A stretch of DNA of 64,000 bases, from assembly GCA_030017685.1 (NCBI GenBank), contig JASEHH010000006.1:3082-67081 (forward strand). The letters run 5' to 3'. Both the position numbers and the translations under genes were made by a program. Positions 44,118-57,494 of the stretch are shown one piece after another (the first letter of the stretch is position 1; each line of letters opens with the position of its first letter). This DNA is from Thermodesulfobacteriota bacterium (GTDB lineage Bacteria > Desulfobacterota > BSN033 > UBA1163). Below the pieces are notes generated by a model, which saw nothing but the letters and a program-made list of their open reading frames with translations, searched no databases and was not told the origin of the DNA.

Positions 44118-45680
44118 TTAGGGATATCTTTCTCGCAACCTACTTGATGGATCCCTAACATTCCGTGAAAACCTGTATAATTCCCTCTCGAGCTTATAAG
44201 AAACCATCTTCTGTATGTGCTGAACGGTTGCATGACCAAACTTTCGGGCAATCATGCCCAGGTAGTCAGGTTTGTTGAAGTACCACTGGAAGGCGTTGTC
44301 CCGGAAGCGGAGCACCTCAGCCCCTGATAGGTATTTGGTCGGCAGAGGCAGTGTATCGACGGCATGTTGGGAATATCCGCTCCAAGTCTCCGGCAGCGGC
44401 CAGCCATCTTTTAGAGCGGTCTTGTACAATTGGGAGCCAGGATAGGCCATTGCACAATAAAAATTGGCGTATTCGGCATTGAGCTCGAGAGCCTGATACA
44501 GGGTTTCCTGCATGCTCGCTATATCGTCCTCGGGCAAGCCGAAGATGTAATTGGCGCCGATATGAATTCCTGACTCCCTGACTTCCTCCAAAACATGAAG
44601 CGTCTTTCCCGGTTTATAGGCCTTGCTCGCATCAGCCAGCACGCGCTCGCTCGCAGACTCGATTCCAAAGGCAAGCCAGTTGACGCCCGCCCGCTTCAGC
44701 TTTTCCAGCATTCTCTTCTTCACGGTATCGATCCGGGCATAGGCCCAGATATTGAGGTCATAGCCCCGCTTGATGATTAGGTCACAGATCGTCTCCACAT
44801 GCTTTGGGTTGAGGATAAATATCTCGTCTGCGATCTTAATATTCCGAACGCCGTATTGACGAACCAGAACGTCAATCTCTTTAATAACCAACTGGGGGTT
44901 CCAGAGCCTGTAACTGTTCACGCCACCTTTGTAACCTAATACCTTCTCGCCCTTCCGGAACGGTGCCTGGATACAACAGAAGGTACAATGGTAAGGACAT
45001 CCCAAAGTGGTATAGAGCGCCGCATAGGGTTGCCGCTTGAGATCACCGAAACAATGCCAGTTGTGGGCTCTATATTTCTCCATGGGAAGGAGGTCCCAGG
45101 CGATTCCAGGCATCTCTCCGTCAAGGTCTTTTATGAGAGGAGCCGGTGGATTCGACTTGATCATCCCATCCTCTCGATACCAGAGGTCATGCACCTTTCT
45201 GTAATCGGCTTGAGACGACTTGAGAGCTTGAAGGAGTTCCAGGATGGTATGGGGTCCTTCGCCTCCGCAGACAAAATCCGTATCTTCTTCCTGTAGCGTC
45301 CGTTCAGGCAGTGCGGCCACATGACCGCCAACCATCAATATCTTGAGTTCTGAAGCATTCTGCTTCAAAGCGGCACAGATGGCACTCGCAGCGGGCATCA
45401 CCTGGGTGGAGGCAGAAGGGTTATGTCCATAAACCACCAAGGCCGTTAACAATGGAGCGATGTCAGCGATCTGCTGAACCGTCTCCTCAATGGAAAGATT
45501 CTCCGCATTGGCATCCAAAATCTGGACTTCAAATCCTCGTTGACGAATGAAGGTAGCCATAAGACCCGCCCAAACCGGAGGTTCCACAGCGACCAGTTCT
45601 GAGGCAAGGGATTGGTAGACCTGACTTCGACCGCCAGGGTTGACCAATAAGAGGTCGAGGTGTCTTTTTCTCACCAACAT
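44118..45680 (-). CDS. B12-binding radical SAM enzyme
   Basis: LLLVNPG...MVGGHVAALPE...VCGGEG; GCPYHCTFC; IADEIF; GIESAS. Confidence 0.9.
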   Translation of the reverse strand: MLVRKRHLDLLLVNPGGRSQVYQSLASELVAVEPPVWAGLMATFIRQRGFEVQILDANAENLSIEETVQQIADIAPLLTALVVYGHNPSASTQVMPAASAICAALKQNASELKILMVGGHVAALPERTLQEEDTDFVCGGEGPHTILELLQALKSSQADYRKVHDLWYREDGMIKSNPPAPLIKDLDGEMPGIAWDLLPMEKYRAHNWHCFGDLKRQPYAALYTTLGCPYHCTFCCIQAPFRKGEKVLGYKGGVNSYRLWNPQLVIKEIDVLVRQYGVRNIKIADEIFILNPKHVETICDLIIKRGYDLNIWAYARIDTVKKRMLEKLKRAGVNWLAFGIESASERVLADASKAYKPGKTLHVLEEVRESGIHIGANYIFGLPEDDIASMQETLYQALELNAEYANFYCAMAYPGSQLYKTALKDGWPLPETWSGYSQHAVDTLPLPTKYLSGAEVLRFRDNAFQWYFNKPDYLGMIARKFGHATVQHIQKMVSYKLERELYRFSRNVRDPSSRLRERYP

Positions 45681-48343: not shown

Positions 48344-49243
48344 TTATCGCTGAAGCATTTGTTTGACAGTTATATAAATTCTGTCTGCATTGGGTGCCGC
48401 GTTCTGCAACGGAGGGCATAGGCACTTGGTTCTATCATATAACCCTAGCGCCTTCACAGAGTGACCTGTGGCTTGGTTCAATGCATAGGCAATGGACTGG
48501 GAAGCCCCTGCGATTTCATAGCCTGAATCAATCACAAGGCCCAGTTTGCTCTGGTTCAGCGGATCGATCAGACGTCTTGTGGAAACAATTGGTTTAAGCC
48601 ACAGAAGATGGATAATGTTGCATTTTATTCCATCGGCTTTGAGCATCTGAGTGGCCCGGGTGACCTCAAATCTTGTAGATGAAATGGCATAAAGGGTGAT
48701 GTCAGCGTCATCCACGAAGACATCGTTCATTTCCTCGGTATTCGGAAAGCTGATGCGGTGCTCACTGACAATCATGGGGTCATCGTTTTCCATGAAGACC
48801 TTCCAGACCTCTTCATACTCCTTTGGAGTCATGGGAGAGCAGACGCGAAAGCCGGGGAAGTGCATGAAAATGCTGTGAAGAATCCCTGAATGGACAGGCC
48901 CTATACCCTCCGCACCGATCGCCCTGACAAAGATGGGCGCGCCTTTCCCGTGGAGTTCCTTTGTCTTGGCCGCATAAAAGATGAGGGGGCTTCCATTCAG
49001 GATGAGAAAATCCTGAAACCGGACGACGAAGATAGGCCTCCGGCCGACCAGGGACGCACCGACGGCAATGCCAGCGCCTGCGACATCGCTCATCGGAAGC
49101 TCCACGATTCCAGGACAGTCCGGAACCGTATTATTCACCCACCCGGCAGCCGTGATCGATTGGCCCAGAAGTAATCCGTTATTCTCGAGCAGGTGGCTTC
49201 TCGTTATCTCCCTAATCGTTTCCGCAACTGTTTTGGATCCCAT
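48344..49243 (-). CDS. ThDP-dependent dehydrogenase E1 beta/transketolase C-terminal subunit
   Basis: LLLGQSI...ELPMSDVAGAGIAVGASLVGRRPI...GPVHS; start set at MGSKTV (40-bp overlap with the alpha gene). Confidence 0.85.
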   Translation of the reverse strand: MGSKTVAETIREITRSHLLENNGLLLGQSITAAGWVNNTVPDCPGIVELPMSDVAGAGIAVGASLVGRRPIFVVRFQDFLILNGSPLIFYAAKTKELHGKGAPIFVRAIGAEGIGPVHSGILHSIFMHFPGFRVCSPMTPKEYEEVWKVFMENDDPMIVSEHRISFPNTEEMNDVFVDDADITLYAISSTRFEVTRATQMLKADGIKCNIIHLLWLKPIVSTRRLIDPLNQSKLGLVIDSGYEIAGASQSIAYALNQATGHSVKALGLYDRTKCLCPPLQNAAPNADRIYITVKQMLQR

Positions 49244-50163
49244 AATTTCTCTATCGACTCTCGAACCTCTTCTTCGATGTTTGATATCTTCTCCAGAAGG
49301 CCCATTTTCCTGAGCTCTTCTTTTACCAGGGTAAACCTGTCCCACTCTGTAGGCCCGTCTTGTCCTACTCCGACATGCCAGTGGGCTCTGCAGGTATCAA
49401 TGTTCAAAAAGGCGGGAAGACCCTTGATCAATTCCTGTGTCCGTTGGATGAGGGTCCATGGGTCATCGCTGGTCTCAAAGGCCTGCATGCCAAGGGCCCC
49501 TGCCACCTTGGTCATGCTCCATGACCGCCGTTTGTCCACCGTGGTTAGGATCGAGAGATTATTATCTTCGCATATAAATAAGACCGGCAATCTATGGGTC
49601 ACTGCAAACCCCATGGCCGCAAAGACATAATCTTCCTCGGCCGCTCCGTCTCCAAAGAGACATACTGTCGGTTTGTTGCTTCCCAGGGCCGCGCCCACAC
49701 CAAGGGAAACGTTCTCCCCGATGAGTCCGTGATGGCCAAACATGGTAATATTGTTTTCATGGCATTGAATGCAATTTGATCCTGCTCTGCCTCCGCTTGT
49801 CCCACCTGGCAATCCCAGAAGCTCATCTCGCAGTTTCTCCGGGGCACCTCCAAAGGCCAGATAGATCCCGTGACATCGATGCTGGGCAAAGATCATGTAT
49901 TCGGGGATGACCAGCGATAAGGCAGCCCCGATGGCTTCCTGCCCGAGAGAGAGATAGACCGGATAGGTGATCAGACCGTCCCCTGCGGCGCGAACGATTC
50001 CAAGTTCAAAATATCGGATCAGACACATCCGGCGAAAGAGGGTGAGGGAGGTGTTGGGATGGAAAGACTGGATAAGATCCGAAATCACACCCAAGGAGGG
50101 TGATCTCCCTAAGGCCTCCTCGTCTGGAACGGCTTCCCTATTTTTTTCCAAAAGATTTGCCAT
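49204..50163 (-). CDS. ThDP-dependent dehydrogenase E1 alpha subunit
   Basis: YLSLGQEAI, AQHRCHG, ThDP motif GDGAAEE...EDNN. Confidence 0.9.
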   Translation of the reverse strand: MANLLEKNREAVPDEEALGRSPSLGVISDLIQSFHPNTSLTLFRRMCLIRYFELGIVRAAGDGLITYPVYLSLGQEAIGAALSLVIPEYMIFAQHRCHGIYLAFGGAPEKLRDELLGLPGGTSGGRAGSNCIQCHENNITMFGHHGLIGENVSLGVGAALGSNKPTVCLFGDGAAEEDYVFAAMGFAVTHRLPVLFICEDNNLSILTTVDKRRSWSMTKVAGALGMQAFETSDDPWTLIQRTQELIKGLPAFLNIDTCRAHWHVGVGQDGPTEWDRFTLVKEELRKMGLLEKISNIEEEVRESIEKLWDPKQLRKRLGR

Positions 50164-51380: not shown

Positions 51381-52655
51381 CTAACGAGTCTCCAGAAACC
51401 TTCCCAATACATCCAGAACATACTCCATCTCTTCCAGTCCCAGGTCTTGGTGGACACCAATGTGTATGCCGTGTTTTCCAATATATTCCGCATTCGGGAA
51501 CTGTCCGGGTTGATAGCCAAGATAGGCAAACCCCGCACATTGGGTTGGCATGGAGGCGAAGAGGGTACGGGTCTCAACGCCATTCTCCTCAAGATAGTGG
51601 GTGAGTTCAGCACGGGTGAAAGATGCCCCTTCCTGAAAAATGATCGGAATGGCATGAGGACCAATCCGCTCATGAGGCTCCTCATGGATTGTAGTTAAAT
51701 AGGGGCTGAAGCGGTTGAATCGGTCAAGGACATAAAGGAGGTTATGACGTCGTTTCTCAACGATATCGAGATAATTTTCGATATTTCCCAGCCCGATGGC
51801 CGCTTCAATCTCGTTCATCTTAGAGGAATAACCGACCCGCTCGAATACAAACCGGATGTCCTCACCCCCGTTGCCATGAAAACGCTTCTGGCAGTACGCG
51901 GATGCCGTATTCAGTGTGCACCGCTTGCACTTACAGGCCCGGCCGTGGGAGCGGAGGGAGCGCAGGATCTCGGCGAACTCTTCCCGATTCGTCGTCACAA
52001 TGCCGCCTTCTCCCGTGGTGATGATGTGGGCTACGTAGAGACTGAAGGCCGCAAGATCCGAGAGCGTGCCAACCGGCTTTCCCTTATACATGGCTCCATG
52101 GGCCTCGGCCGCATCCTCAATGACGTAAAGTCCATGCCTTCTGGCAATCGCATTGATGACATCCATGTCGGCTGGCTTTCCCATGAGATGGACCGGCATG
52201 ATCGCTCGCGTCTTCTCTGTGATGGCTCCCTCAATCTGGCTGATATCGATGTTGAGAGTCTTCCTGTCGATATCTACAAATACCGGCTTGAAACCCGCAT
52301 GGACCACCGCATTGCCCGTGGCGACGAAGGAGAGGGCTGGAAGGATCACTTCATCGCCTCGCTTCGCTCCAAAGTCATGGAGCACGGCAAGTGCCAGAAT
52401 ATCCGCATCCGTGCCACTGCTTACGGCCACGGCTTCCTTCACCCCAAGGAGGTCTGCAAATCTTTCCTCGAACTGTCGCACGTACTTGCCGCTTGAGATA
52501 CGAGCCATCTCAAGGATGTCTCCAATAAGCCTCCTGGAGAGTTCCGGGATTTGGATCGTCCCGAAGGTAACCCTTCTCTTTTCACGGAAAAACTTCTTCC
52601 TCACAGGAGGTCTCATCGAAAGTACTGTTCGATCTCTTGCCTCATCCATCTCCAT
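51381..52655 (-). CDS. DegT/DnrJ-fold PLP enzyme with His at the catalytic Lys position (ColD/E1-type sugar C3 dehydratase candidate)
   Basis: SSGTDA, PVHLMG, IEDAAEAHG, FSLYVAH210IITTGEGG; Cys cluster GRACKCKRC...YC. Confidence 0.82.
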   Translation of the reverse strand: MEMDEARDRTVLSMRPPVRKKFFREKRRVTFGTIQIPELSRRLIGDILEMARISSGKYVRQFEERFADLLGVKEAVAVSSGTDADILALAVLHDFGAKRGDEVILPALSFVATGNAVVHAGFKPVFVDIDRKTLNIDISQIEGAITEKTRAIMPVHLMGKPADMDVINAIARRHGLYVIEDAAEAHGAMYKGKPVGTLSDLAAFSLYVAHIITTGEGGIVTTNREEFAEILRSLRSHGRACKCKRCTLNTASAYCQKRFHGNGGEDIRFVFERVGYSSKMNEIEAAIGLGNIENYLDIVEKRRHNLLYVLDRFNRFSPYLTTIHEEPHERIGPHAIPIIFQEGASFTRAELTHYLEENGVETRTLFASMPTQCAGFAYLGYQPGQFPNAEYIGKHGIHIGVHQDLGLEEMEYVLDVLGRFLETR

Positions 52656-53580
52656 TTTCTTTCTCCAAGAACCATCGAAAAGTTTCTTTTAATGCGGACT
52701 TGAAGTCATGGAAAGGCCGCCAGCCCATGGCCCAGAGTTTGCTGGAATCGAGAAGTTTCACGGGCATGCCATCTGCCTTATTGGCATCAAATCGCAACTC
52801 CCCTTTGTAACCGACGACTTCTTTGATCAAGACGGCAAGTTCCTTGATGGAGAGCGCCATCCCTGTTCCGAGATTAATGGGTCGATCATCGTCATATTCG
52901 TTCATCACGAAAATACAGGCATTCGCCAGGTCGCCAGCGAAGATAAATTCCCGCTGTGCGGCGCCCGTCCCCCAGATCTCTATATACTCTGCATGAGAGA
53001 GTTTTGCCTCATGCATCCTTCGGATGAGTCCAGCCACCACATGGGAGTTCTCTGGGCTGAAATCATCCCCTGGACCAAAGGCATTGGCCGGAATAGCTGA
53101 AATGAAATTCACCCCATACTGCTGACGATAGGCCTGACACAATTTCATGCCAGCGATCTTGGCTAGAGCATAGGCCTCATTGGTCGGTTCGAGGAGCCCG
53201 GTGAGCAAGGCGTCTTCTTTCATGGGTTGCGTGCAGAACTTTGGATAGCTACAGGAACTTGCCAGAAAAAGAAGTTTCTTCGCCCCGTGGCAGTAGGCAG
53301 AGCGAATGACATGACATTCCACCAGAAGATTGTCGAGCATGAGTTGTGCAGGATATTTCTGGTTGGCCATGATGCCACCTGATCTCCCGGCGGCCAAGAA
53401 GACGTATTCGGGCTTCTTACGAGCGAAGAAGGCGTCTACCTGAGTCCAATTGATCAACTCAGGTTCTTCTCTTGGTCTGTCGACAATGTGAGTGTACCCT
53501 TGGCGGTCCAATGCGCGCAGGATGGCTCCTCCGATCATGGTCTCGCCACCCGCCACATAAATTTTTTCATGCTTTTCCAA
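52642..53580 (-). CDS. fcl: GDP-L-fucose synthase/ColC-like epimerase-reductase
   Basis: AAGRSGGIMAN...LASSCSYPK...EPTNEAYALAK...WGTGAAQREF. Confidence 0.9.
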   Translation of the reverse strand: MEKHEKIYVAGGETMIGGAILRALDRQGYTHIVDRPREEPELINWTQVDAFFARKKPEYVFLAAGRSGGIMANQKYPAQLMLDNLLVECHVIRSAYCHGAKKLLFLASSCSYPKFCTQPMKEDALLTGLLEPTNEAYALAKIAGMKLCQAYRQQYGVNFISAIPANAFGPGDDFSPENSHVVAGLIRRMHEAKLSHAEYIEIWGTGAAQREFIFAGDLANACIFVMNEYDDDRPINLGTGMALSIKELAVLIKEVVGYKGELRFDANKADGMPVKLLDSSKLWAMGWRPFHDFKSALKETFRWFLEKENGDG

Positions 53581-53589
53581 ATCCCTCTC

Positions 53590-54654
53590 CTAAGATGGAT
53601 TAGGGGTAAGTTCTTGGAAGGACCGGATCGGCCGGCAAGCCCGATCCCTTTCCTCCGCCGAGTAATCCTCCTCCGAATCGAAAAAGATGATCTGACTTCC
53701 GGAGAATTCAATTTTGAACGGGACATGGATCAATTTGTTCAGTCTCTCTCTCACTTCTCCCTGCCTGGAAGGAGGGACGAAAAGCAAAATGAATCCGCCA
53801 CCTCCGGCTCCTGTTAATTTTCCGCCGATGGCCCCTGCTGAGATGGCTTCCTCGTAGATCTCATCCACATGAGAGTTGGAAACCTTGGAACTCAAGCTCC
53901 GTTTAGCCTGCCATGCCTCATGGAGGAGTTCGCCAAAGCCGGATATATCTTCACCGTTATTCAGGATCGAAATGCTTTCCTCAATTAAATCTTTCATAAT
54001 CCGAAGCTGCCTTTTTCTGCCTTCCATATCATTGACATAACTCTCGGCAATATTGGATGCCGTCCGTTTGATCCCTGTGTAGAAGAGCACCAGATGGGAA
54101 TTCAGTTCTTTGATCCGCTCCGGCGAAAGGGTAATAGGTCTGACAGAAAATGTGCCATTTGGAAGAAAGGTGATATGGTTGAAGCCACCGAAAGCCGCCG
54201 ACACCTGATCCTGGGACCCCACGGTCTCCTTCAGAACCTCCTGCTCAATATAGATGCTTTCTGTGGCTAATTGCTGCTTGCTTGGCATATAGCCTTTGAG
54301 GGCGTACAGGGCATGAAGGAGTCCCACGGTAAAAGAAGAACTGGTCCCCATCCCGCTCCGTGCTGGAAGATCCCCATCATGATGGATCTCCACGCCACGA
54401 TCGATATTCAAATGGCGTAAGATCTCCCGGACAGCGGGGTGGGCGATTTCGTCAATGGTCTGGCAGCTTTCGATCTTCGAGTAAACCAATCGGATCTTGT
54501 GTTCGAAAAAAGGCGGGAGATAGCGGCATGTCAGATAACAGTATTTGTCGATGGCAGTGGCGAGCACTGCCCCCCCATGTTTCCGGTACCATGCTGGATA
54601 GTCTGTTCCGCCACCGAAGAAAGAAATCCGAAAAGGAGTTCTGCTAATAATCAT
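53590..54654 (-). CDS. hddA: D-glycero-alpha-D-manno-heptose-7-phosphate kinase (GHMP kinase)
   Basis: RTPFRISFFGGGTDYP, DLPARSGMGTSS, GSQDQ, GGKLTGAGGGGF. Confidence 0.9.
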   Translation of the reverse strand: MIISRTPFRISFFGGGTDYPAWYRKHGGAVLATAIDKYCYLTCRYLPPFFEHKIRLVYSKIESCQTIDEIAHPAVREILRHLNIDRGVEIHHDGDLPARSGMGTSSSFTVGLLHALYALKGYMPSKQQLATESIYIEQEVLKETVGSQDQVSAAFGGFNHITFLPNGTFSVRPITLSPERIKELNSHLVLFYTGIKRTASNIAESYVNDMEGRKRQLRIMKDLIEESISILNNGEDISGFGELLHEAWQAKRSLSSKVSNSHVDEIYEEAISAGAIGGKLTGAGGGGFILLFVPPSRQGEVRERLNKLIHVPFKIEFSGSQIIFFDSEEDYSAEERDRACRPIRSFQELTPNPS

Positions 54655-55834
54655 GGATATTCACCTCTTTCTCTTGACCAAACAGGTCACGCTCGACCAA
54701 GGCACATAAGATGTGTTCGATCGCCAGATGGGCCTCTTGAATGTATTGGGTATCGGTGCTCGGAACTGAAATGGTCACATCCGCCCTCCCTTCCCGGTCG
54801 CCCTCCTTGCCTTTCAGAACGATGGTATGCATCTCTCCTGCTTGTGCGACTTTGACCGCACGGACCACATTAGCGGAGTTGCCACTCGTACTGATGCCGA
54901 TCAGGACATCTCCTCCCCTTCCAAGGGCCTGGATCTGACGTTCGAAAATGCCTTCGAACCCACAATCATTGGCGAAGGCTGTCAGAAAGGAGGTGTCCGT
55001 GGTCAAGGCAATGGCTGGCAGCCCGGGTCGATCAAAGTTCTTCGTCAGCCGACTGACAAATTCCGCAGCCATGTGCTGGCAATCGGCTGCACTTCCCCCA
55101 TTCCCGCACAACAGCAACTTTCCACCAGACCGGAACGTTTCCGAAATCAGGTCAGCCGCAGCGATAATCGAATCTACACAGCTCTCAACCATCTGCCGCT
55201 TCACCTCACCACTCTCAAAGAGGTGGTTCCTGACCCTATTGCGAAGCCGATCCACGCTGGGCTGCATTTTTTCTTTTGTCCCACCTGAGGCAAGAAGTTG
55301 CTGGATGAGGTTGGCCCCGGCTAATAAATCATCCACAACATAATCGGGTGGGAGCAGGGTACAAGAAGCAGAAGACTGGTCTCCATAGCCAGTACGAACC
55401 AATAGCGTCGTGGCCCCAACTCTTTTCCCAAGCTCAATGTCACATGCCTTATCGCCAATCACGAAACAGGCTTTTGGATCAAAGTCAAGTTCCTTCGCCG
55501 CCAACTCAAGGAGTCCGGGTCTGGGTTTACGGCAGGAACAATCCTCCTCGGGTCTATGGGGACAAACATAGATTCCATCCAAGTGAACATCTTCCGCCTT
55601 CAGTAGTTCACGGAGACGCTGATGAATGAGTTCCAGACGCATTGGGTCAAAGTATCCTCTTCCGATGCCGGACTGATTGGTGATCACAACGAGACCGAGG
55701 TCCATCTGACTCATTTGGTGCATGCCTTGAACGACTCCAGGGATCAATTCGACCCGATCAGGGTCCGAAAGATAATGACGCTCAATGTTTATCGTCCCGT
55801 CACGATCCAAAACTACGAAACGTCGCTGGGTCAT
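54644..55834 (-). CDS. gmhB/gmhA: Fused heptose-bisphosphate phosphatase (GmhB) and phosphoheptose isomerase (GmhA)
   Basis: LDRDGTIN...CPH...CSCRKPRPG; then CGNGGSAADCQH, ISTSGNS, IQEAH. Confidence 0.92.
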   Translation of the reverse strand: MTQRRFVVLDRDGTINIERHYLSDPDRVELIPGVVQGMHQMSQMDLGLVVITNQSGIGRGYFDPMRLELIHQRLRELLKAEDVHLDGIYVCPHRPEEDCSCRKPRPGLLELAAKELDFDPKACFVIGDKACDIELGKRVGATTLLVRTGYGDQSSASCTLLPPDYVVDDLLAGANLIQQLLASGGTKEKMQPSVDRLRNRVRNHLFESGEVKRQMVESCVDSIIAAADLISETFRSGGKLLLCGNGGSAADCQHMAAEFVSRLTKNFDRPGLPAIALTTDTSFLTAFANDCGFEGIFERQIQALGRGGDVLIGISTSGNSANVVRAVKVAQAGEMHTIVLKGKEGDREGRADVTISVPSTDTQYIQEAHLAIEHILCALVERDLFGQEKEVNIHDY

Positions 55835-56559
55835 GCCTCTGTCCTCCCAGCAAAAAAATGTTCTGCTGAAGCATAGGCTTCAGGAGTGCCAATATCTAAA
55901 AAGAGTCCCTTGCTGAGATAGCCGTAAAGTCTCTGGCCGATCCAAGCGGAAAGCATCTCCTGTTCCAAAGAGACAGGTCTGTTGGCCGGAATGCTCAGCA
56001 ATAGCTGATGATGGATAAGATAGACGCCTGCGTTAATCCAGCCGGGTGTACCGTTGTCATTTTTTTCGGCAAATTGCGTCAGACGGCTATTCGCATCCAC
56101 GTTCACCCTGCCGTAACGATTCGTATTGGGGACTTCAGTTAAGAGGATCGTGGCGTTTGCATTTCGTGCCAGATGCCAGGACCAAAAAGCACTCAAGTCG
56201 ACTGAACAATAGGAATCACCGTTCATGACCAGTACGGTATCCGACTGAAACAAAGGGGATGCTAACCGGAGGGCACCGGCCGTACCCAAGGGTTCTGCTT
56301 CCTGGGAATAGACCAAATGGAGTCCGCGGTAAGTATCTCCAAACATAGCCCGGACTTCCTCACCCCGGTGGCCTGTGCACAAGACAACATACTGGAGTCC
56401 GCCAGCGGCTACCTGATCCAGTAGGTAAGCCAAAAAAGGTCGTCCACAAACCTCTGCCAGGACCTTTTGTTGGTCTCCGATCATGGAACGAAGTCGAGTT
56501 CCCAGGCCACCAGCGAGAATGGCTGCCGTAATATTGGATAGGTCTTTCATCCTCTTCAC
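55831..56559 (-). CDS. hddC: Heptose-1-phosphate guanylyltransferase-like nucleotidyltransferase
   Basis: ILAGGLGTRLR, EPLGTAGAL, NGDSY, INAGVY, FLDIGTPE; beside hddA/gmhAB. Confidence 0.85.
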   Translation of the reverse strand: MKRMKDLSNITAAILAGGLGTRLRSMIGDQQKVLAEVCGRPFLAYLLDQVAAGGLQYVVLCTGHRGEEVRAMFGDTYRGLHLVYSQEAEPLGTAGALRLASPLFQSDTVLVMNGDSYCSVDLSAFWSWHLARNANATILLTEVPNTNRYGRVNVDANSRLTQFAEKNDNGTPGWINAGVYLIHHQLLLSIPANRPVSLEQEMLSAWIGQRLYGYLSKGLFLDIGTPEAYASAEHFFAGRTEA

Positions 56560-57494
56560 ACGTTCTTAAAGGGACTGCGTCCCAGCATATGAAATCCCTT
56601 CAACAACTCTTTGATCCCATCGTCCAGAGAACGCCGAGCCTCAAAACCTGTTTTCCGCAACCGCTCACTCGAAACGATGTAATTACGTTTGTCCGGATCG
56701 TTACCCACTTCTGAGAAATGGATGTAAAAGTGAGGCACGTGTTCTTTGATCTTCAAGGCCAGTTCAGCCTTGGAAAGGTTGGCAACATCCAACCCTACGT
56801 TGTAGGGCCTCCCGATCATCTCCTCAGCATGTTCGATGCAATGAATAAAACAATCTGCCACATCACGAATGTGGACAAAATTTCGCTTGAAATCCTTCTC
56901 GAAAATGACAAGATAGCCCTCTGTGATGGCTACACAAACGAAATGGTTTACCAGAAGATCCAACCGCAAGCGAGGTGACATGCCGAAGACCGTTGCCAGA
57001 CGGAGACTGATCACATTAGGTCTCTCCAGTAGCTCGGCTTCAGCCTGTACTTTGGTCTGGCCATAGAGGGAGATCGGTTGCATAGGCGTTTCTTCAGTGC
57101 AATAGACATCCCCTGACTGGATGCCATAGCCGCTATTGGTGGTCGGGAAGATCACCAATTGGTTTGGGCTTCGAAGACGGTTCAGCATCTGTATTGCTTC
57201 CAGATTGACTGATCTTGCGAGTTGAGGATCTTGATCACAGGCTGGCGCCCCTACAACGGCTGCGAGAGGTATCAACACGTCCGCATCCTTCATAAGATCG
57301 CGCATTAACTTTTCGTTTCGGGCATCTCCCCACACAAATTCGAAATGGGGGTGGGAGCAGAGATGAAATAAACTCTGTTGGCCATACATCAGGTTATCAA
57401 TGGCAGTCACCTGATACCCGGCATTGAGAAGATGCTCACATAAAATTGAACCCAGGTAACCAGCACTACCTGTAATTAGGACGCAAGTCCTCAT
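56556..57494 (-). CDS. Extended SDR resembling C. jejuni Cj1427 GDP-heptose C4 dehydrogenase
   Basis: GSAGYLGS, LAAVVGAPAC, PTTNSGYG, PISLYGQTK, RLATVFGMSPRLRLDLLVN, DPDKRNY. Confidence 0.82.
   Translation of the reverse strand: MRTCVLITGSAGYLGSILCEHLLNAGYQVTAIDNLMYGQQSLFHLCSHPHFEFVWGDARNEKLMRDLMKDADVLIPLAAVVGAPACDQDPQLARSVNLEAIQMLNRLRSPNQLVIFPTTNSGYGIQSGDVYCTEETPMQPISLYGQTKVQAEAELLERPNVISLRLATVFGMSPRLRLDLLVNHFVCVAITEGYLVIFEKDFKRNFVHIRDVADCFIHCIEHAEEMIGRPYNVGLDVANLSKAELALKIKEHVPHFYIHFSEVGNDPDKRNYIVSSERLRKTGFEARRSLDDGIKELLKGFHMLGRSPFKNV

What the first reader, a model, noticed from the sequence alone, without database searches (positions are those of the whole stretch)
51381..52655. Apparent aminotransferase is probably a C3 dehydratase with a possible Fe-S motif
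The Schiff-base Lys of DegT enzymes (S-x-x-x-x-K-x-x-x-x-GEGG) is His210 (codon at 52026-52028), the hallmark of ColD and E1/RfbH. GRACKCKRC...YC sits where E1 has its Fe-S-binding Cys. An E1-like enzyme acting on a GDP-heptose would be new to me; no E3 reductase is in the window.
Basis: partly seen in the sequence, partly recalled or inferred. Interest (0 to 1): 0.68.

Follow-up and report, generated by a model that had tools for sequence, protein, structure and literature searches.

The report
Histidine-type heptose 3-dehydratase with cysteine loop
This gene looks like a sugar aminotransferase but carries the hallmarks of a sugar C3-deoxygenating enzyme with a probable iron-sulfur loop; it sits in a GDP-heptose operon inside a flagellar gene region and belongs to a large, unstudied family from uncultured sediment bacteria.

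Summary
The minus-strand ORF 51381-52655 (424 aa) is a DegT-fold PLP/PMP enzyme. The Schiff-base Lys is replaced by His210 (codon 52026-52028), which aligns with E1 His220 and ColD His188. The loop C241-x-C243-xx-C246-x8-C255-x-KRF aligns with the E1 loop C251-x-C253-xxx-C257-xxx-C261-K-KRF. His210 and all four Cys are invariant in 120 protein clusters and in 57 genome loci from many phyla, all of them MAGs.

The family is a separate lineage, sister to E1+ColD, and is not an RfbH equivalog (276 bits against a cutoff of 423). It lies in a conserved cassette: an HddA-like kinase, an HddC-like guanylyltransferase, a Cj1427-like GDP-heptose C4-dehydrogenase (51% identity) and a B12-radical-SAM enzyme. 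The likely substrate is therefore GDP-4-keto-heptose that keeps its 6-OH.

No E3 or ferredoxin gene is nearby. A nested subclade (22 loci) keeps the His but has lost the whole Cys loop, so the loop is a dispensable module. ColD-type GDP-heptose 3-dehydratases are already known in C. jejuni; an Fe-S-type one is not. I rate this a new variant of a known kind, of moderate interest. The Fe-S cluster and the mechanism remain untested.

The parts
51381..52655 (-). His-type DegT-fold enzyme (424 aa; most homologues begin near residue 25). Putative PMP/PLP-dependent GDP-4-keto-heptose 3-dehydratase.
   Evidence: Pfam PF01041 338.5 bits. Best NCBIfam hit is RfbH, 276 bits, below the 423 cutoff. PDB hits include perosamine synthase, E1 and ColD. 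A GGAGA motif lies 8 nt upstream of ATG 52655.
52026..52028 (-). Codon of His210, in the position of the Schiff-base Lys.
   Evidence: Aligned with E1 His220 and ColD His188. Invariant in 120 clusters and in 78 family loci.
51891..51935 (-). Codons of the Cys loop C241-K-C243-K-R-C246-(x8)-C255; putative Fe-S (or metal) binding site.
   Evidence: Aligned with E1 C251/C253/C257/C261 followed by KRF. All four Cys are invariant in loop-bearing members. The whole loop is deleted in 22 clade-B loci. AF2 pLDDT is below 50 for residues 238-277.
52041..52115 (-). Conserved cofactor-site residues, from Asp181 (EDAAEAHG) to Ser205.
   Evidence: D181 and S205 are invariant in the family and near-invariant in 124 His-type and 24 Lys-type relatives, as are G81 and G218 upstream and downstream (T82 is invariant in the family, T or S in relatives). 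The PLP/PMP site therefore appears intact.
52642..53580 (-). GDP-L-fucose-synthase/ColC-like epimerase-reductase (SDR_B). Its stop overlaps the target's start.
   Evidence: NCBIfam GDPFucSynFcl 409 bits, cutoff 500. Present in 38 of 85 fetched loci. Fused to the His-DegT in P0084.
53590..54654 (-). HddA-like GHMP kinase (heptose-7-phosphate 1-kinase).
   Evidence: NCBIfam HddA is the best hit at 152 bits, below cutoff. Co-located with the target family in 56 loci.
54644..55834 (-). GmhB (HAD phosphatase)-GmhA (sedoheptulose-7-P isomerase) fusion.
   Evidence: NCBIfam GmhA 187-208 bits and GmhB 176.5 bits against a cutoff of 178. Pfam SIS_2 plus HAD.
55831..56559 (-). HddC/mannose-1-P guanylyltransferase-like nucleotidyltransferase.
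   Evidence: NCBIfam man1P_GTase 171 bits and HddC 138.6 bits. Co-located in 55 loci.
56556..57494 (-). Cj1427-like GDP-D-glycero-D-manno-heptose C4-dehydrogenase (SDR_A). It supplies the 4-keto substrate without 6-deoxygenation.
   Evidence: 351 bits, E 3.5e-104, 51% identity over 308 ungapped residues to PDB 6VO6/6VO8. The PDB title names Cj1427. Co-located in 49 loci.
44118..45680 (-). B12-binding radical SAM enzyme (HpnJ/BchE-like), the most conserved extra partner in the cassette.
   Evidence: Pfam B12-binding plus Radical_SAM. NCBIfam HpnJ 167 bits, below cutoff. Matches to this protein (22-66% identity; at the low end merely related B12-radical-SAM enzymes) in 56 loci.
48344..50163 (-). 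PDH-E1-alpha/beta-like thiamine-diphosphate enzyme pair. Candidate for two-carbon branching at the C4 keto group.
   Evidence: Pfam E1_dh, Transket_pyr and Transketolase_C. TPP pairs occur in 19 loci, and a split transketolase-type pair in 16 further loci. The functional role is inferred only.

Best explanation
The gene encodes a PMP/PLP-dependent nucleotide-sugar 3-dehydratase of the E1/SpnQ/ColD class. It belongs to a separate, previously uncharacterised lineage.

[quoted passage not shown] The Cj1427-like SDR oxidises C4 to give GDP-D-glycero-4-keto-heptose, which keeps its 6-OH.

Proposed mechanism (inferred by analogy with E1 and ColD): the target binds this ketone as a PMP ketimine. His210 removes the C4' proton and the 3-OH is expelled, giving a 3,4-ene-PMP adduct. 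The four invariant loop cysteines (C241, C243, C246, C255) most likely hold an Fe-S cluster. As in E1 and SpnQ, this cluster would pass two single electrons from a general ferredoxin or flavodoxin to the adduct, since no dedicated E3 is encoded nearby. That would release GDP-3-deoxy-4-keto-heptose and regenerate PMP.

Downstream (inferred): the keto sugar is finished by the ColC/GFS-like reductase, or modified by the TPP and B12-radical-SAM enzymes, and is then used by the giant TPR-glycosyltransferases of this flagellar island. The most probable target is flagellin.

Shown here: the fold, the His substitution, the homology and conservation of the loop, and the conserved gene cassette. Inferred: the substrate, the Fe-S cluster, the electron route and the final product.
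For: The protein has a DegT fold with an intact cofactor site. His210 aligns with the catalytic His of E1 and ColD and is invariant.

A distance tree of the C-terminal halves (215 columns, 60 bootstraps) supports a monophyletic family (60/60) and a clade of the family plus E1 plus ColD, separate from Lys-type enzymes (60/60).

The Cys loop aligns residue for residue with E1's Cys-rich loop, including the trailing KRF. It is missing from the Lys-type relatives. E1 and SpnQ bind a [2Fe-2S] cluster through a four-Cys motif near PMP (review PMC8987622).

The four loop Cys are invariant across 47-100% identity, whereas C373 is not.

The cassette is conserved across Desulfobacterota, Nitrospirota, Omnitrophota, Planctomycetota, Elusimicrobiota and Chloroflexota: GHMP kinase in 56 loci, NTP transferase in 55, Cj1427-like SDR in 49 and B12-rSAM in 56 of the 85 fetched loci.

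SDR_A is 51% identical to Cj1427. [quoted passage not shown]

The adjacent GFS/ColC-like reductase is fused to the enzyme in P0084.

SpnQ works with general ferredoxin or flavodoxin reductases, so the lack of an E3 gene does not argue against this model (PMC8987622).

Metatranscriptome contigs from a sediment sample lie on the gene.
Against: There is no biochemical evidence for metal content or activity.

The AF2 model has pLDDT below 50 over residues 238-277, and no coordinates were available, so the geometry of the four Cys could not be checked.

The E1 position C193, which from my memory of Agnihotri et al. 2004 is the fourth E1 ligand, is an invariant Ala here.

Twenty-two loci in a nested subclade keep His210 and the same cassette but lack the entire loop. 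They differ from loop-bearing members at only four other fixed positions. The core reaction therefore does not need the loop, and a ColD-like, glutamate-dependent route may be available to all members.

No reductase or ferredoxin is enriched next to loop-bearing members.

The N-terminal half, including EDAAEAHG, is closer to GDP-perosamine synthase, a true aminotransferase, than to E1.

The HddA-like and HddC-like assignments are below NCBIfam cutoffs.
Confidence: 0.6

Rival explanations
1. The enzyme is a ColD-type 3-dehydratase. It makes PMP from PLP and L-glutamate, dehydrates C3, and releases the enamine, which hydrolyses to the 3-deoxy-4-keto sugar plus ammonia. The Cys4 loop binds structural zinc or a non-redox cluster and plays no part in electron transfer.
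For: Loop-less clade-B orthologues sit in the same cassette with an almost identical core. The substrate is a GDP-sugar, as for ColD and the C. jejuni heptose 3-dehydratases (PMC10440746). No E3 or ferredoxin partner is present in the window or enriched in related loci. Alpha-ketoglutarate released by a ColD-type cycle is the co-substrate that Cj1427-type dehydrogenases need (PMC10680097); the neat stoichiometric coupling is my inference. The N-terminal half resembles the glutamate-using perosamine synthase.
Against: ColD's own loop has no Cys. The loop here is homologous to the loop of E1, and E1 binds a [2Fe-2S] cluster through a four-Cys motif that, from my memory of Agnihotri et al. 2004, includes three Cys of this loop (PMC8987622). 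Four Cys remain invariant down to 47% identity across many phyla. That is a strong constraint for a purely structural site that a sister subclade has deleted outright.
Confidence: 0.27
2. The enzyme is, or also acts as, a 4-aminotransferase that makes a GDP-4-amino-4-deoxy-heptose, with His210 or another base substituting for Lys. This would resemble the aminotransferase side activity that SpnQ shows when no reductase is present.
For: SpnQ transaminates when given PLP and glutamate without a reductase (PMC8987622). The best overall PDB hits by E-value are perosamine synthases. Some cassettes have no second SDR to reduce a 4-keto product (for example L003).
Against: All characterised His-for-Lys DegT enzymes are 3-dehydratases (PMC8987622). 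No acyl-, formyl- or N-methyltransferase typical of amino-sugar pathways is conserved in the cassette. A ColC/GFS-like 4-reductase is adjacent here and is fused to the enzyme in P0084, which implies a 4-keto product.
Confidence: 0.06
3. The His-DegT works as an obligate pair with the conserved B12-radical-SAM enzyme in a reaction other than simple 3-deoxygenation. Examples would be methylation or rearrangement of the PMP-bound 3,4-ene or radical intermediate, with the loop cluster serving that chemistry.
For: Matches to the HpnJ-like B12-rSAM (22-66% identity) are found in 56 of the 85 fetched loci, often directly adjacent to the His-DegT. Its closest NCBIfam models include carbohydrate-modifying enzymes such as HpnJ and AprD4.
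Against: Some cassettes lack the rSAM enzyme altogether (for example L003, L025, L036, L038, L039, L070). Loop-less clade-B members keep the rSAM partner, so the loop and the rSAM are not coupled. There is no precedent and no direct evidence.
Confidence: 0.07

Closest known systems
E1 / RfbH / DdhC (CDP-6-deoxy-L-threo-D-glycero-4-hexulose 3-dehydrase, Yersinia pseudotuberculosis; PDB 3BCX, 3BB8)
   Same: DegT fold. His replaces the Schiff-base Lys (H220 in E1, H210 here), preceded by Ala. Both have HG/WG-R-x-C-x-C...C...C-x-KRF in the same inserted loop. RfbH is the best NCBIfam hit, and E1 is the best PDB hit for the C-terminal half.
   Different: Only about 30-32% identity, below the RfbH cutoff (276 against 423). 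Cys spacing is CxCx2Cx8C here and CxCx3Cx3C in E1. E1 C193 is Ala183 here. The context is GDP-heptose rather than CDP-hexose. There is no E3 (AscD) partner and no 4,6-dehydratase in the operon.
SpnQ (TDP-4-keto-2,6-dideoxyglucose 3-dehydrase, Saccharopolyspora spinosa)
   Same: An Fe-S-containing His-type 3-dehydratase that has no dedicated E3 and uses general ferredoxin or flavodoxin reductases (PMC8987622). This is the operating model proposed here.
   Different: It acts on a TDP-sugar in actinomycete secondary metabolism. Here the setting is a GDP-heptose pathway in a flagellar glycosylation island of an uncultured sediment bacterium.
ColD (GDP-4-keto-6-deoxymannose 3-dehydratase; PDB 2GMS) and the C. 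jejuni HS:5/HS:11 GDP-heptose C3-dehydratases
   Same: His-type DegT acting on a GDP-sugar, followed by a GFS/ColC-like epimerase-reductase. The C. jejuni enzymes act on GDP-4-keto-heptoses, and the HS:5 enzyme accepts the Cj1427 product in vitro (PMC10440746, PMC10680097).
   Different: About 28-31% identity. ColD's loop is shorter and has no Cys, and ColD has no Fe-S cluster. ColD's substrate is made by a 4,6-dehydratase (6-deoxy), whereas the partner here is a Cj1427-type C4-dehydrogenase (6-OH kept).
GDP-perosamine synthase (PerA, Caulobacter; PDB 3BN1, 3DR4)
   Same: Best overall PDB E-value and Foldseek hit (34% identity). It shares the EDAAEA(H/V)G and IITTGEGG motifs and binds a GDP-4-keto sugar.
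   Different: PerA has the catalytic Lys, preceded by Asn, and lacks the roughly 30-residue loop. It is a true aminotransferase.

Membership tests
DegT/DnrJ/EryC1/StrS fold-type I sugar aminotransferase superfamily (Pfam PF01041) | Full-length match to the family profile above the gathering score. | tested here: met
   338.5 bits against a cutoff of 19.8, covering profile positions 11-358 of 360. Foldseek TM-scores (normalised by target length) are 0.74-0.89 to DegT structures.
DegT/DnrJ/EryC1/StrS fold-type I sugar aminotransferase superfamily (Pfam PF01041) | Schiff-base Lys in S-x-x-x-x-K. | tested here: not met
   The position is His210, invariant in the family. The protein has the fold but is not a canonical aminotransferase.
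Nucleotide-sugar 3-dehydratases (E1/SpnQ/ColD class) | His in place of the catalytic Lys. | tested here: met
   His210 aligns with E1 H220 and ColD H188.
Nucleotide-sugar 3-dehydratases (E1/SpnQ/ColD class) | Intact PMP/PLP-binding residues (Asp to the pyridine N, Ser/Gly-Thr to the phosphate). | tested here: met
   D181, S205, G81-T82 and G217-G218 are conserved in the family and in 124 His-type relatives. The role assigned to each residue comes from general knowledge of the fold.
Nucleotide-sugar 3-dehydratases (E1/SpnQ/ColD class) | Phylogenetic grouping with E1 and ColD rather than with Lys-type enzymes. | tested here: met
   NJ tree on 215 C-terminal columns: the family plus E1 plus ColD group together in 60/60 bootstraps. 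Limitation: only the C-terminal half was used, and the E1, ColD and PerA fragments were taken from PDB alignments.
Nucleotide-sugar 3-dehydratases (E1/SpnQ/ColD class) | Catalyses C3 deoxygenation of an NDP-4-keto sugar. | not testable with these tools
   Needs an enzyme assay.
E1/RfbH equivalog (NCBIfam NF011936) | Score at or above the curated cutoff (423 bits). | tested here: not met
   276.4 bits.
E1/RfbH equivalog (NCBIfam NF011936) | [2Fe-2S] motif C-X57-C-X1-C-X7-C (C193, C251, C253, C261; the ligand list is from my memory of Agnihotri et al. 2004). | tested here: inconclusive
   The counterparts of C251, C253 and C261 are present and invariant (C241, C243, C255). The C193 counterpart is Ala183. 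An extra invariant C246 lies next to the E1 C257 position.
E1/RfbH equivalog (NCBIfam NF011936) | Dedicated E3 (AscD-type) flavin/[2Fe-2S] reductase partner and a CDP-glucose pathway. | tested here: not met
   No ferredoxin or plant-type [2Fe-2S] Cys motif was found in the six-frame translation, and Pfam scans of most ORFs of at least 150 aa gave no Fer2, Fer4 or FNR-type domain. The neighbours are GDP-heptose genes.
ColD-type GDP-sugar 3-dehydratase | Cys-free loop, no Fe-S cluster, glutamate-dependent PMP regeneration. | tested here: inconclusive
   The loop here has four invariant Cys, unlike ColD. Clade-B orthologues have no loop at all. Glutamate dependence is not testable here.
[quoted passage not shown] | All five activities encoded next to the gene. 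| tested here: met
   GmhB-GmhA fusion near cutoff. HddA and HddC (with man-1-P guanylyltransferase) are the best or near-best hits but below cutoff. The Cj1427 homologue scores 351 bits at 51% identity. These are assignments by homology, not proof of activity.

The most novel reading that the evidence does not exclude
A third, very widespread lineage of Fe-S-containing PMP sugar 3-dehydratases uses a self-contained CxCxxC...C loop and general ferredoxin instead of E3. It works on a 6-hydroxy GDP-4-keto-heptose made by a Cj1427-type dehydrogenase. In cassettes without a second SDR, that dehydrogenase's tightly bound NADH might re-reduce C4 in a redox-neutral cycle. Together with the conserved B12-radical-SAM and TPP enzymes, the pathway would yield a new class of natural 3-deoxy, C-methylated or C4-branched heptoses that decorate flagellin or other surface structures in many uncultured anaerobic phyla. 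The nested loop-less subclade would then record a recent natural switch from an E1-type to a ColD-type mechanism.
Probability: 0.25. Interest if true: 0.65.

Novelty: new variant of a known kind. Interest (0 to 1): 0.5.

Why it matters
Only a few C3-deoxygenating DegT enzymes have been studied: E1, SpnQ, ColD and the C. jejuni heptose enzymes. They define two mechanisms, reductive Fe-S and hydrolytic glutamate-dependent.

This gene belongs to a large uncharacterised lineage that is routinely annotated as an aminotransferase. All 78 family loci fetched from the species-representative genome collection are metagenome-assembled genomes. Among the 147 nearest 50%-identity cluster representatives that cover the catalytic site, 122 have His rather than Lys.

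The lineage contains both loop-bearing and loop-less members with almost identical cores in the same operon. That makes it a natural test system for what the Fe-S loop contributes.

The cassette also predicts that 6-hydroxy 3-deoxy-heptoses occur in nature, probably on flagella. The two C. jejuni heptose papers read here describe such sugars only as in-vitro products. Finally, the result gives a simple rule for re-annotation: His at the Lys position, plus or minus CxCxxC...C.

Tried and rejected
1. AF2 model of the target from a 34-sequence alignment. The fold is confident, but the Cys loop (238-277) has pLDDT below 50, and no coordinates are exposed. Cys geometry could not be tested.

2. I tried to read the primary E1, SpnQ and ColD papers for the exact Fe-S ligands (PMC2782820, PMC2515268, PMC2242600, PMC2197195) and the Cj1427 structure paper (PMC7509852). 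None is held. The E1 ligand list therefore rests on my memory plus the review PMC8987622.

3. Search for an E3, ferredoxin or FNR partner. Regex scans for 4Fe-4S and plant-type 2Fe-2S motifs found nothing in the window. Pfam scans of most ORFs of at least 150 aa found no such domain. All-against-all clustering of ORFs in the 85 loci plus the window found no redox protein specific to loop-bearing loci. The clade-A-specific clusters were transketolase halves and a GT2.

4. Residues co-varying with loss of the loop. Only S54T, R268K, R348K and G393S differ, which is not informative about mechanism.

5. Pseudoenzyme or chance motif: rejected because of invariance, the intact cofactor site and the transcript contigs.

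6. Substrate made by a 4,6-dehydratase (3,6-dideoxy product): rejected as the primary reading. The only candidate SDR upstream is a Cj1427 homologue, not a GMD-type dehydratase.

7. Literature searches for a natural 6-hydroxy 3-deoxy-heptose or for this cassette found nothing beyond the in-vitro work of PMC10680097.

8. C373 as a fifth or alternative ligand: rejected, because it is T, Y or Q in several members.
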